Source: Promethearchaeota archaeon
Lineage (GTDB): Archaea; Asgardarchaeota; Lokiarchaeia; Sigyniarchaeales; SOKP01
Length of the DNA stretch: 64,000 nucleotides
Direction: 5' to 3'
Assembly: GCA_019058245.1 (NCBI GenBank)
Contig: JAHPZJ010000010.1
Span: 78,224-142,223, forward strand
Positions within the stretch are counted from its first letter, which is position 1, and the number at the start of each line of letters is the position of its first letter. The notes below the pieces were generated by a model. It worked only from the letters and a program-made list of their open reading frames with translations, searched no databases and had not been told where the DNA came from. Shown piece by piece: positions 26,276 to 44,871 of this stretch. Made by a program: the position numbers and the translations under genes.

Positions 26276-26408
26276 TGCCAAGGGGGAGATTTGAACTCCC
26301 GATACCTAGATCTTCAGTTTCACCATTATCAGTAATTCTGATGATTCTAGTGCGTTCTTACCCGACATCAGGGAAATTCTAATGTTCACCGGGCTACGCC
26401 ACCTTGGC
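26276..26408 (-). tRNA. tRNA-Phe(GAA) with two introns (about 26359-26387 in the D-loop; 26319-26346 in the anticodon stem)
   Basis: GCCAAGG/CCTTGGC acceptor; spliced CTAGA-CTGAAGA-TCTAG; GGGAG-TTCAAAT-CTCCC. Confidence 0.9.
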
Positions 26409-40448: not shown

Positions 40449-40586
40449 AATTACTTATACTATTGATTTGGTATTATCAGTATTTTTTATTAATAAAAAT
40501 ATTTGATAATTCTAATAATAAAACATTTTTAAATAAATTAAAGGTAATTTTGAAAGAATAGATGAAAAATAAAAAATATTGACTAT

Positions 40587-40686
40587 TTATGGCCCCTCAA
40601 AAAAAACAGTGGATGTAGTTATATTGTTCCTCGGTCAGTTTATCAATCTCAACGCCCTTTGATTGCAGTTTTAGGAATCCTATCAT
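40587..40686 (-). pseudogene. Decayed copy of the last 33 codons of ahcY
   Basis: Encodes MIGFLKLQSKGVEIDKLTEEQYNYIHCFF, then a +1 frameshift, then EGP*; aligns to 42480-42578. Confidence 0.88.
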
Positions 40687-40929
40687 AAATACATAAGAAA
40701 TATTCCAATTATTTTGGAGCGTTAAGTAAAAGAGCTCTATATTCGCCAGAACTCGAAAAAATGTTGGAAAAGATCATTAGTAGTTCATTATAGGAGAAAC
40801 TGAATCAGAGAAAAAAAGATATCTCTATTTTACTTGTACTATTCTATTTTTATGAATAAATCATTAGAAAAATCTTTTTATTATAGAAGAAGTTTGAATT
40901 CATAATCCTATAAATAAGGAATTATTAAA

Positions 40930-42375
40930 ATGGTACGTTATAAGTGGACTGTATTAATAATAACGACTATTGGAGTATTTATGTCTTCTTTAGATGCAAG
41001 TATCGTAAATATTGCGATACCTTCTCTTTCAAGAGATTTAAAAACATCATTTGAAGTTGTCCAATGGATTCCGATAATATATTTGTTAGTTCAAGCAGTT
41101 ACGCTCATCGGTTTCGGGAGATTATCGGACTTAAAAGGAAGAAAATTATTTTTTTTGTTTGGAATCTTTCTTTTTACATTTGCAAGTTTTTTTTCTACAT
41201 TTGCAGCCTCTGGAATTATATTAGTAATTTTTAGAGCTATCCAAGGTCTTGGTAGTTCCTTTATATCAGCGAATGCTCCTTCTATGATAACAGACATTTT
41301 TCCTCGAGAAGAGACTGGTAAAGCGTTAGGTATTAATGTTGCAACTATATATTTAGGATTAATTATTGGACCCGTTTTAGGAGGAATAATTGTCCAATTT
41401 TCCACTTGGAGGCTTATATTCTTTATAAACGTTCCAATAGGATTTATACTCATAATTGTGGGATGGTTTAAGCTAAGAAAAGTAAATCCGGGAATAAAAG
41501 AAGAGAGATTTGATATTTGGGGGACACTACTCTTTATGTCATTCTTAGTTACTTTGCTTTTAGCATTGACCATCGCTAACCTAGTTGGATGGGGTTCTAT
41601 TCAAGTTATTTTATTATTGATTATTTCAACATCAAGTATTATCTTATTCATTTATATAGAAAGTAAAGCAAAATATCCATTATTTAAACTAAGTTTATTT
41701 AGAAGAAATAGAGTGTTTTCATTTGCTAATTTTGCCGCTTTATTCAATTATACAGCAATATCTGGGGTTAGTTTTTTACTTTCAATATATCTTCAATCAA
41801 TATTAGGAATCTCGCCTGCTATTACGGCTTTATTTTTATTACCGACAACAATTACAATGGCCAGTATAGCCCCATTAAGTGGGAGATTTTCAGATAAATG
41901 GGGAACTAGGATTTTAACGACGTTAGGTATGGTTATTATGGCGATTGGATATGTCATTTTAAGTATATTTATAAGATTTTTACCTATAATATATATTCTA
42001 ATAACCCAATTTGTGGTTGGATTTGGGATTGGACTATTCTCTTCTCCGAATAATTCTGCTATCATGAATGCTGTAGAACCAAAAGATCACGGGATTGCTG
42101 CTGGAACTCTTTCTACCATGCGTGTGGTTGGACAATCAATTAGCGTAGCATTATTAAGTGCAATATTAACTCTTTTCATCCCTCTCTCCATTCTAAATCC
42201 AATATTATCAAATTCAACATTACTAACAGATCCTACTGCAAAACAAGAATTCATAATAGGTATGCAAATTTTATTAATTGTTTCATCAATAATTTGCTTT
42301 ATTGGGGCTTTCTTGTCATATATGAGAGGGAAAAAAGCTTTAAATGACAATATTGATTTTAAAAAAGCTATATAA
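40930..42375 (+). CDS. MFS drug:H+ antiporter (DHA2/EmrB-like)
   Basis: LDASIVNIA, GRLSDLKGRK, FRAIQGLG, WRLIFFINVPIG. Confidence 0.92.
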   Translation: MVRYKWTVLIITTIGVFMSSLDASIVNIAIPSLSRDLKTSFEVVQWIPIIYLLVQAVTLIGFGRLSDLKGRKLFFLFGIFLFTFASFFSTFAASGIILVIFRAIQGLGSSFISANAPSMITDIFPREETGKALGINVATIYLGLIIGPVLGGIIVQFSTWRLIFFINVPIGFILIIVGWFKLRKVNPGIKEERFDIWGTLLFMSFLVTLLLALTIANLVGWGSIQVILLLIISTSSIILFIYIESKAKYPLFKLSLFRRNRVFSFANFAALFNYTAISGVSFLLSIYLQSILGISPAITALFLLPTTITMASIAPLSGRFSDKWGTRILTTLGMVIMAIGYVILSIFIRFLPIIYILITQFVVGFGIGLFSSPNNSAIMNAVEPKDHGIAAGTLSTMRVVGQSISVALLSAILTLFIPLSILNPILSNSTLLTDPTAKQEFIIGMQILLIVSSIICFIGAFLSYMRGKKALNDNIDFKKAI

Positions 42376-42479: not shown

Positions 42480-43780
42480 TCATGTCCCCTCAAGAAAACC
42501 GTGGATATAATTATATTGCTCTTCAGTTAGTTTATCAATCTCAACGCCCATGGATTGAAGTTTTAAAAAGCCCACCATGTCATCTATCTCTACTGGAACA
42601 TCTATCATTCCTGACTTTAATTTATCTTTATTTTTTACGATATACTCAGACATTAAAGATTGTAAGCCAAATGACATATCCATGACTTCAGCGGGATGCC
42701 CTTCAGAGAGCACTAAATTAGCCAAGCGTCCTTTTGCAAGTAAATATACTTTCTTACCATTAGGCATTAGCAGTTCTTCTACATTTGAACGAATAGGTTT
42801 TATCTCCTTTGCGTAATCGTAGAGCTCTTTAGTTGGAATTTATTGATTTAACACGAAATATGTGCAAAATTTTCAATATCAAAGTGCCCTAAATTACCCA
42901 AAATAACTCCCTCCTTCAATTTGTCGAACACTTCTTTTCTCGGAGCAATGACATGTTTACATCCTGTAGCAGTTAGAATTATATCTGCGTCCTGTAAAGC
43001 TTTCTCAATAGGCATAACTTGATAACCTGAGAATTTAGCTTGGAGGGCCTTAATTGGATCAACTTCAGTTACAATTACATTCGCACCAAGACCCCTTGCC
43101 CTCAAAGCCATCCCACTACTGCAATGTCCATATCCAGCAATAACTACATTCTTTCCAGCAAAAAGAACATGCATTCCATAAATTGCAGAAACTATACCTT
43201 GACCTGTACCTAATTCATTATCAAATTGATTCTTACATCGAGCATCATTAACAGGAAATAGTGGCACTTTTAATACTCCTTGTTTATCCATTGCCCTGAA
43301 TCTTTTAACTCCAGTGGTAGTTTCTTCCTGACACGCAAGAATGTTATCAGAATTTATAAGATTTTCATATTCTTGATGAGCAGTGACTATCATATCACCG
43401 CCATCATCTATCAATATATTTGGTTTGGCGTCTAAACATTTCCTTATACACCAATAGAATTCTTCATCAGTATTACCATGCCAAGCAAAGACATTAATTC
43501 CTTCCTTTATTAATGCTGCAGCTACATCATCCTGAGTTGATAAAGGGTTACTACCGCACAGATAGACTTCAGCACCACCCGCTTTAAGAGTCAAAGCAAG
43601 ATTACCCGTTTCTTTCGTTACATGTAAACAACCAGCTACTGTTATATCCTTTAGTGGTTTTTCTTTTTGAAATCTTTCACGAATCACCTTAGCAGTTACA
43701 GGCATTTTACTTTCTGCAATATACAGTGCTTCTTTTCCTTTTTCAGCTAGACTTTCATCAGCTACTTTATAATTGACCAT
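42480..43780 (-). CDS. ahcY: S-adenosylhomocysteine hydrolase, two exons (43780-42872 and 42839-42480), 422 aa if spliced
   Basis: SNPLSTQD, DDGGD, EETTTG, GYG, TEVDP, GHFDIE | IP..GRLANL..GHP.EVMDMSF. Confidence 0.9.
42840..42871 (-). other. Candidate 32-nt BHB intron in the ahcY mRNA
   Basis: 4-bp helix ATTG/CAAT, two AAA bulges and an intron stem; predicted cuts restore GAA|ATT in frame. Confidence 0.8.
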
Positions 43781-43899: not shown

Positions 43900-44871
43900 T
43901 TGGATATTTGTCATAATTTGAATAATATCATAGATCAAGTAGAAGCCCAAAAATTTATAAAAAACTTAAGTGGAAAAACCAAATTTATCATTTCAAAAAT
44001 TTCACATGCGCTTGGACTCTCTAGGCAAACCTATCAAAATAAACTTGATAGTTTGAGAGTTCAAAAAATAATTAAGAATTTTACAATAAACATTAATCCA
44101 AATATTCGTCCAAATGCCTTGAAATATGTAATGATGGAAATCAAAACCAATCCAAAAGAACCTAAGCTAGTAAAAGAATTATTAGATATACCTCAACTAA
44201 GAATGTTGGATGGTATTATTGGAGATTTTTCATTATTTGCCTTATTTGTCTTTAAATCTCCTGAAGAATACTATCAAATTTTAAATAATATTGATAAAAT
44301 TATGGCAAAGTCATACTTTAAAAAATATCAAATTATTGACACCATAAAAGTATTTAAAACAAATGGAATTAGTCTTAAAAATTTAAAAGTGACTGAATTA
44401 GACGATATTGATTATGAAATTTTGAATATACTTCGAGATAATCAAGGACTTAAGCCAATATCCACTTATGAGATAAGAAATATATTTAAAGAAAAACTTC
44501 AGAATGAAATATCTCAATCAACGATTCATAACAGAATTAAAAAACTCGAAGAGCAAGATATTATTTTAAATTATACTATTAATTTTTATCCAAAGAAAAT
44601 TGGGTTCGAAGGAAAATATCTCCTTCGAATTAAACCAAAAGATCCATCAAAATATAGCGAACTTGCTTTCAAATTGGATATGAACAAGAAGATTACTGAT
44701 TTATTTCGAATAGGTGAGCAATATGGACTCTTTGCAATTGTGAGAGTAAAAAAAATAGAAGATTATGCTTCATTTATAAGAGATTTATATAGTACAGAAG
44801 ATATTGAAGATACTTATACAAATTTTGTATTGGATGAATTAAAACCATATTTAAATTTCTCATTGTTTTAA
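43900..44871 (+). CDS. Lrp/AsnC-family regulator with duplicated HTH-RAM units
   Basis: Two HTHs (ISHALGLSRQT; SQSTIHNRIKKLE), each followed by a RAM-like domain. Confidence 0.85.
   Translation: MDICHNLNNIIDQVEAQKFIKNLSGKTKFIISKISHALGLSRQTYQNKLDSLRVQKIIKNFTININPNIRPNALKYVMMEIKTNPKEPKLVKELLDIPQLRMLDGIIGDFSLFALFVFKSPEEYYQILNNIDKIMAKSYFKKYQIIDTIKVFKTNGISLKNLKVTELDDIDYEILNILRDNQGLKPISTYEIRNIFKEKLQNEISQSTIHNRIKKLEEQDIILNYTINFYPKKIGFEGKYLLRIKPKDPSKYSELAFKLDMNKKITDLFRIGEQYGLFAIVRVKKIEDYASFIRDLYSTEDIEDTYTNFVLDELKPYLNFSLF

What the first reader, a model, noticed from the sequence alone, without database searches (positions are those of the whole stretch)
42840..42871. Candidate tRNA-type (bulge-helix-bulge) intron inside the ahcY mRNA
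Seen: ahcY breaks right after the conserved GHFDxE motif. The sense strand reads GAT ATT GAA [AATTTTGCACATATTTCGTGTTAAATCAATAA] ATT CCA ACT. The 32-nt insert carries an in-frame stop and shifts the frame. It folds as a BHB: central 4-bp helix ATTG/CAAT, 3-nt bulges AAA and AAA, intron stem ATTTTGCAC/GTGTTAAAT (one U-U, one G-U) closing a 7-nt loop, and a weak exon stem GA/TC behind a U-U. Established: archaeal splicing endonuclease cuts after the second nt of each bulge, and BHB introns in protein genes are rare (crenarchaeal cbf5 is the classic case). Applying that rule removes exactly these 32 nt and gives GHFDIE-IPTKELY..., a full 422-aa AhcY with no other lesion. The tRNA introns in this window have similar size (28-32 nt) and geometry. 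Inference: this is endonuclease-dependent mRNA splicing of a metabolic gene in an Asgard archaeon. It could tie SAH turnover, and hence methylation capacity, to tRNA-splicing activity; the unspliced message gives a 310-aa protein lacking the GRLxN and C-terminal oligomerisation regions.
Basis: partly seen in the sequence, partly recalled or inferred. Interest (0 to 1): 0.92.

Follow-up and report, generated by a model that had tools for sequence, protein, structure and literature searches.

The report
tRNA-type intron in Asgard ahcY gene
The only S-adenosylhomocysteine hydrolase gene found in this Asgard (Loki-type) archaeon is broken by a 32-base insert shaped like a tRNA intron and kept, with matching base changes, at the same spot in 13 related genes, so its messenger RNA is very probably cut and rejoined by the tRNA-splicing enzymes, which the papers I could search confirm inside only one archaeal coding sequence (cbf5).

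Summary
Confirmed in DNA; splicing itself not observed. The 32-nt insert (42840-42871, minus strand) is real: DNA contigs of other samples carry it. Removing it gives a 422-aa AhcY whose junction matches 29 intronless relatives exactly. Fourteen distinct alleles carry a 30-, 32- or 33-nt insert at this codon. All end CAATAA, all stop or shift the frame, and the intron stem covaries (97% of cells paired; 4 pairs changed on both sides). Exon 2 stays under purifying selection. The genome encodes two EndA subunits, the catalytic one with the broad-specificity loop, and RtcB. The motif is relaxed (HBh'), like the window's tRNA-Phe introns, and is chance-level on its own. No RNA run was available. 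The regulatory idea is unsupported: only 2 of 54 genus genomes have this intron, whereas an RNase HII intron is in 50 of 54. Extra finding: the intron is patchy, coincides with recombined tracts, and lies about 10 nt upstream of a hotspot where DNA cassettes insert into ahcY. This scan noted such introns before on other Asgard DNA, ahcY included (AI notes, unchecked).

The parts
42872..43780 (-). ahcY exon 1, codons 1-303, ending ...GHFDIE
42840..42871 (-). 32-nt BHB-type (relaxed HBh') intron; in-frame TAA at 42848-42850 and a frameshift
42480..42839 (-). ahcY exon 2, codons 304-422 plus stop (IPTKELY..., GRLANL, SEGHP, C-terminus)
42874..42877 (-). exon strand of the central 4-bp helix (ATTG; GTTG in 2 of 14 alleles, keeping a G-U pair)
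42842..42845 (-). intron strand of the central helix (CAAT, invariant in 14 alleles)
42862..42870 (-). 5' arm of the intron stem h'
42846..42854 (-). 3' arm of the intron stem h' (covaries with the 5' arm)
42820..42891 (-). predicted outer exon-exon pairing that encloses the motif; not recovered in the consensus fold of 14 alleles, so unproven
42817..42830 (-). inferred insertion/recombination hotspot, +10 to +23 nt after the splice junction (from relatives)
40580..40686 (-). decayed second copy of the ahcY 3' end (81% identical, frameshifted), displaced behind an MFS transporter gene
40930..42375 (+). MFS-type transporter ORF between the two ahcY 3' ends; absent at this place in the closest relative G024
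   Evidence: family judged from the sequence, not scanned
26276..26408 (-). tRNA-Phe(GAA) with a 31-nt D-loop intron (26358-26388; ends uncertain by 1-2 nt) and a 28-nt anticodon-stem intron (26319-26346); internal evidence that relaxed motifs are spliced here

Best explanation
The insert is a tRNA-type intron in the ahcY pre-mRNA. The transcript folds so that exon ATTG pairs with intron CAAT, a 3-nt bulge and a 9-bp intron hairpin lie on one side, and the 3' site lies in an open internal loop (relaxed HBh'). The two-subunit splicing endonuclease EndA cuts after the second base at each site, RtcB joins the exons, and the 422-aa enzyme is translated. Shown: the insert, its conserved position and covarying fold, selection on both exons, and the enzyme genes. 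Inferred: cleavage and ligation in the cell. The intron is best read as a tolerated passenger that is gained and lost together with recombined tracts of ahcY, not as a regulator.
For: Removal restores GHFDIE|(I/V)P(T) exactly as in 29 intronless genus relatives, colinear with solved AhcY structures. 14 distinct alleles have inserts of 30, 32 or 33 nt at this codon; the cut rule gives the exact junction in all, and the in-frame ones end in TAA. 97.1% of cells paired, 4 pairs with changes on both sides, 0/500 shuffles as high, slid controls 25-43%. Exon positions -4, -1, +1, +3 are invariant in 14/14 intron alleles versus 18, 17, 22, 15 of 28 intronless. The ten 32-nt introns average 83% identity while third codon positions average 50%. 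pN/pS in intron alleles: exon 1 0.15, exon 2 0.14, codons 304-327 before the first ATG 0.12, as in intronless genes. Single ahcY in G000 and in three other carriers searched with exon 2; G076 has only decayed extra fragments. EndA catalytic subunit with Tyr/His/Lys and the L1-loop Lys aligned to the crenarchaeal enzymes, plus a second paralogue; intact RtcB. PMC5829648: Asgard EndA is (alpha-beta)2 with L1, the type that cuts relaxed motifs. Same-size introns in the window's tRNA-Phe. RNase HII is split inside DEAG|RG by a 29-30-nt insert in 50 of 54 genus genomes, with an in-frame stop in all 12 read.
Against: No RNA, cDNA, cleavage or peptide evidence for this gene. No joined 422-aa protein of this lineage among the best 120 full-length hits (top 92%). 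The exon helix is weak and the BHB conformer is not the predicted minimum. The motif is chance-level genome-wide. Five alleles came from a pattern that fixed the last 12 exon-1 bases, and alleles are related, so the covariation statistics overstate. The genome is 76% complete.
Confidence: 0.9

Rival explanations
1. Split gene: translation stops in the insert and re-starts at the ATT just behind it (or at the first ATG, codon 328), giving two polypeptides that assemble.
For: TAA lies directly before an ATT that is invariant in 14/14 alleles. An unchecked note proposes AUU starts elsewhere in this window (e1-5570112).
Against: Does not explain the covarying hairpin, the invariant CAAT complementary to the exon or the 3-nt spacing. 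The ATG version is excluded by selection on codons 304-327. The same design inside the catalytic DEAGRG of RNase HII, within a codon, cannot work by re-initiation.
Confidence: 0.04
2. Recoding: ribosomal frameshift, hop or stop read-through across the insert.
For: An A-run (GAAAAUUUU) and a hairpin lie at the 5' junction.
Against: 32-nt alleles need a frameshift and 30/33-nt alleles need read-through or a hop, so one mechanism cannot serve all. The insert-encoded residues vary freely and would sit next to a conserved motif. L046 has AAT at the junction.
Confidence: 0.02
3. Pseudogene or assembly artefact.
For: Most relatives lack the insert; two genus genomes of 94-95% completeness gave no ahcY hit with these queries, so the gene may be dispensable in some.
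Against: Present in DNA of other samples and in 13 other alleles at 76-77% nucleotide identity for those measured; no second lesion in any; exon-2 selection unchanged.
Confidence: 0.02
4. The intron is spliced and also serves as a regulator that couples SAH hydrolysis to splicing capacity. Not exclusive of the best explanation.
For: An unspliced message would give a truncated enzyme; the intron sequence is more conserved than silent sites.
Against: Found in 5 of 161 class genomes, scattered over the tree (7 changes on a tree of the 5' half; one clade rejected, p-AU 5e-55), missing in relatives with 97-98% identical protein. A divergent AsnC/Lrp-family gene offers ordinary control.
Confidence: 0.08

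Closest known systems
cbf5 pre-mRNA intron of Desulfurococcales and Sulfolobales (Yokobori 2009, PMC2738675; Watanabe 2002 cited there)
   Same: Short (16-44 nt) intron in a coding sequence at a conserved motif, often relaxed BHB, cut between bulge positions 2 and 3 by hetero-oligomeric EndA; lineage-specific absence.
   Different: Here: Asgard archaeon, a metabolic gene unrelated to RNA processing, rare and scattered among close relatives with recombination tracts, and one of several such genes in the genome; splicing not yet shown by cDNA.
Non-canonical tRNA introns of Asgard archaea (PMC11291895; bioRxiv 10.64898/2026.10.13.758758)
   Same: Same lineage, same enzyme, similar size and relaxed motif (the window's tRNA-Phe); repeated gains.
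   Different: These papers deal with tRNA genes; a term search found no mRNA or cbf5 mention in the preprint and only tRNA introns in the other.
BHB intron in the 5' UTR of Haloferax HVO_1309 (Schwarz 2020, PMC7714728)
   Same: mRNA substrate of the splicing endonuclease.
   Different: Outside the coding sequence; homodimeric euryarchaeal enzyme.
tRNA intron gain at mobile-element attachment sites (Randau and Soll hypothesis; Caldiarchaeum tRNA-Thr, PMC3293823)
   Same: Intron presence/absence in one population next to displaced gene fragments; intron proposed to arrive with, or block, integrating DNA.
   Different: Here the target is a protein gene, and no integrase was found in the cargo examined.

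Membership tests
Archaeal BHB (EndA-type) intron | 4-bp central helix between exon 1 and the intron 3' end | tested here: met
   56/56 cells paired in 14 alleles, one one-sided change
Archaeal BHB (EndA-type) intron | 3-nt bulge followed by an intron helix h' | tested here: met
   9-bp stem 95% paired, 4 pairs changed on both sides
Strict hBHBh' motif | second 3-nt bulge closed directly by an exon-exon pair | tested here: not met
   closing pair U.U or C.U in all alleles; two pairs follow. The relaxed HBh' form is met.
Archaeal BHB (EndA-type) intron | cutting after the second base of each bulge restores the mature sequence | tested here: met
   exact junction for 30-, 32- and 33-nt alleles
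Archaeal BHB (EndA-type) intron | host encodes an EndA able to cut relaxed motifs, and a ligase | tested here: met
   two EndA paralogues, L1-loop Lys and Tyr/His/Lys in one; RtcB; activity not tested
Archaeal BHB (EndA-type) intron | intron removed from the RNA in vivo or cut by EndA in vitro | not testable with these tools
   no RNA holder listed
Group I / group II self-splicing intron | ribozyme core of well over 100 nt | tested here: not met
   32 nt; no Rfam match other than two tRNAs in the window
Integrase attachment site (attB) in a protein gene | displaced copy of the gene's 3' part with a fixed 5' boundary downstream of inserted DNA | tested here: met
   19 listed extra fragments all start at or after residue 307, none before the junction
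Integrase attachment site (attB) in a protein gene | integrase gene in the inserted DNA | tested here: inconclusive
   no Pfam integrase among 10 cargo ORFs of G076; other cassettes and the rest of the genomes not searched

The most novel reading that the evidence does not exclude
The intron is tied to DNA traffic. It sits about 10 nt upstream of a site where cassettes repeatedly integrate into ahcY, it is delivered or removed by those events, and it may alter the target for integration while splicing keeps the enzyme intact. This would be the tRNA 'intron at the attachment site' model realised in a protein-coding gene, and a route by which mRNA introns spread in the archaeal relatives of eukaryotes.
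Probability: 0.2. Interest if true: 0.9.

Novelty: new variant of a known kind. Interest (0 to 1): 0.78.

Why it matters
In the papers I could search, endonuclease splicing inside an archaeal coding sequence is confirmed for cbf5 only. A covarying intron in a housekeeping metabolic gene, together with an RNase HII intron nearly fixed in the genus, implies that mRNA splicing is routine in these Asgard archaea. It also means such genes are mis-called as broken in databases (at least nine 310-313-aa AhcY entries). Because alleles with and without the intron exist among near-identical relatives, gain and loss of an mRNA intron can be studied directly, which bears on how protein-gene introns spread before the spliceosome.

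Tried and rejected
RNA evidence: no RNA holder listed; this says nothing on expression. Motif-only genome scans: 585 loose hits, no enrichment of the canonical geometry over shifted controls, one filter lost ahcY itself and all missed the RNase HII intron; not used as a count. Search for a joined protein of this lineage by exon 2: none above 92%; short-contig near matches (P0134, P0108, P0158) proved to be intronless alleles on metagenome contigs. The joined protein has no reference, so it was not sent to any search or fold. Phylum-wide pattern was too loose and matched intronless genes; the listed matches from other classes show no insert at this codon, but 70 rows were unlisted and many genomes did not match, so the ahcY introns noted earlier in Thorarchaeota and Jordarchaeia were not placed. 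Run X9 covers the insert but with only 19 letters on one side, so it is not counted as bridging; X7 does not cover it. ARAGORN at low threshold gave noise. A local tree of +/-45-60 nt did not group the intron alleles, so a single recent donor is not shown. Divergent tracts also occur between intronless sister pairs, so tracts are not specific to the intron.

Full report
Observation. The minus strand reads GAT ATT GAA, then 32 nt (42871 to 42840), then ATT CCA ACT. Unspliced, the frame stops at 42848-42850 after 310 codons. Removing the 32 nt gives one 422-codon ORF. It is the only ahcY in this 76%-complete genome, apart from a decayed copy of the last ~33 codons. DNA contigs of another study (X5) and another sample (X6) span the insert without a gap, and no joint skips it, so it is not an assembly error. 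No RNA run was listed.

Junction. Twenty-nine genus relatives read GHFDIE(I/V)PTK without an insert, so 32 nt at this codon is the right size and place. Solved AhcY structures are colinear across the junction; exon 2 holds the GRLxN and EGHP motifs and the C-terminus, which by established knowledge of the family belong to the active site and the oligomer contacts.

Other alleles. A pattern that assumed nothing about the insert, a degenerate pattern over the genus, and a protein search for truncated AhcY gave 14 distinct alleles with an insert at the same codon. Lengths are 30 (3), 32 (10) and 33 (1). All end in CAATAA. The in-frame ones therefore carry a stop. None has a second lesion in the sequence available. 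Named records among them are Promethearchaeia and 'Hermodarchaeota' MAGs, and homologues are labelled Lokiarchaeota or Promethearchaeota, which places the window among Loki-type Asgard archaea.

Structure. The central helix keeps all 56 cells, with A-U changing to G-U in two alleles. Silent exon positions in the motif are fixed in intron alleles and variable in intronless ones. The pair that should close the 3' bulge is U.U or C.U, so the motif is the relaxed HBh' type. The BHB conformer is 2.3 kcal/mol above the predicted minimum. The motif alone proves nothing in this 29% G+C genome: shifted geometries score as often. Caveats: alleles are related, and five were found with a pattern fixing the exon-1 end.

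Selection. In intron alleles pN/pS is 0.15 for exon 1, 0.14 for exon 2 and 0.12 for the 24 codons before exon 2's first ATG, against 0.12-0.14 in intronless genes; pairwise dN/dS for exon 2 is 0.03-0.07 where measurable. Exon 2 is therefore translated from its first codons. That excludes a pseudogene and a restart at ATG. One recoding mechanism cannot serve both 32-nt and 30/33-nt inserts.

Machinery. The genome has two EndA paralogues. One aligns with crenarchaeal catalytic subunits, with Tyr, His and Lys and the loop GSPLGINKPR; the other lacks the KFG motif. RtcB is intact. PMC5829648 reports (alpha-beta)2 EndA with this L1 loop in Asgard archaea and links it to cleavage of relaxed motifs. 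The window's tRNA-Phe has introns of 31 and 28 nt, the latter without an exon helix, and their removal gives a normal tRNA.

Not a lone case. Earlier notes of this scan (unchecked AI notes) list many such inserts in Asgard genomes, ahcY in other classes among them. I tested three leads in this genome: inserts of 30-31 nt with BHB-like ends split DEAG|RG of RNase HII, the Walker B region of an ABC ATPase and the GxGxxG of a nucleotide-sugar dehydrogenase. The RNase HII insert is in 50 of 54 genus genomes and has an in-frame stop in all 12 read; its central helix has a mismatch in some. The genus as a whole thus appears to need mRNA splicing.

Distribution and movement. The ahcY intron is in 2 of 54 genus and 5 of 161 class genomes, in three genera of one family. 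Carriers are scattered; one clade is rejected. The window's gene and its intronless sister (G024) differ by 6% outside and 24% inside CDS 618-1146, a tract that spans the junction at 909; G076 and G018 show the same. Two closer pairs are almost identical upstream of the junction and differ at 12-13 of 16 silent codons from +12 to about +66, with one amino-acid change. Displaced, decayed ahcY 3' fragments lie downstream of the gene in the window and in several relatives, six in G076. With a query covering residues 201-422, all 19 listed extra fragments start at or after residue 307; none crosses the junction (12 weaker matches unlisted). I infer a hotspot about 10-20 nt after the splice site where cassettes enter and replace the gene's 3' part. 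No integrase was found in the cargo scanned, tracts also occur between intronless pairs, and the direction (gain or loss) is not settled. The link between intron and hotspot is a hypothesis, with a precedent for tRNA genes in PMC3293823.

Mechanism and verdict. Most likely (0.9) EndA cuts the pre-mRNA at the two sites and RtcB ligates it; these steps are inferred. A regulatory role is not supported. In print I found splicing within an archaeal coding sequence confirmed only for cbf5, with other cases merely predicted (PMC2738675), and a 5' UTR intron in Haloferax (PMC7714728); searches for Asgard mRNA introns returned nothing relevant, though the library lacks most subscription papers. It works like the cbf5 intron and meets every sequence test of a relaxed BHB intron; the defining biochemical test is open. 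New variant of a known kind; interest 0.78.

Noticed in passing
G000:C25:92012-92041 (+); L075-L086: RNase HII gene split inside DEAG|RG by a 29-30-nt BHB-like insert in 50 of 54 genus genomes; in-frame stop in all 12 read. The spliced ORF in G000 is only 149 aa as assembled (near the contig end); not examined further.
   Followed up: partly
G000:C23:15430-15459 (+) and G000:C3 near its end (-): 30- and 31-nt BHB-like inserts in a nucleotide-sugar dehydrogenase (GxGxxG) and an ABC ATPase (DEPTTG); removal restores the motifs. Relatives not checked.
   Followed up: partly
L087/L088 (G076:C22:11200-28730): Six decayed ahcY 3' fragments alternate with cargo genes (nSTAND3 NTPase, luciferase-like oxygenase, PEP-utilising enzyme, seven ORFs without Pfam hit): a cassette array built at ahcY.
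   Followed up: partly
window 40580-42375: Decayed ahcY 3' end plus an MFS transporter ORF, absent at this place in G024; probably one such cassette.
   Followed up: partly
L044 vs L070; L040 vs L071, CDS +12 to +66: Near-identical intron/intronless pairs differ at most silent codons only in this 3' tract, while keeping even rare residues (VKPVRTD, 1 of 174 proteins). Unexplained.
   Followed up: partly
codon 311, window 42816-42818: Asp in 11 of 14 intron alleles but in 1 of 174 full-length proteins (mostly Glu); linked to the intron by descent or by RNA structure.
   Followed up: partly
G127:C38, G134:C231, G086:C195: Contigs end within a few codons of the junction, as expected if populations are mixed at this site.
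   Followed up: no
window 26276-26408 (-): tRNA-Phe(GAA) with two non-canonical introns, missed by Rfam and by ARAGORN without its intron option, and mis-called as Ser with it.
   Followed up: yes
window 43900-44871 (+): AsnC/Lrp-family regulator gene divergent from ahcY, conserved next to it in most fetched loci.
   Followed up: no
G006, G008, G036: No full ahcY found with these queries in three genus genomes of 90-95% completeness; G006 keeps a short 3' remnant.
   Followed up: no
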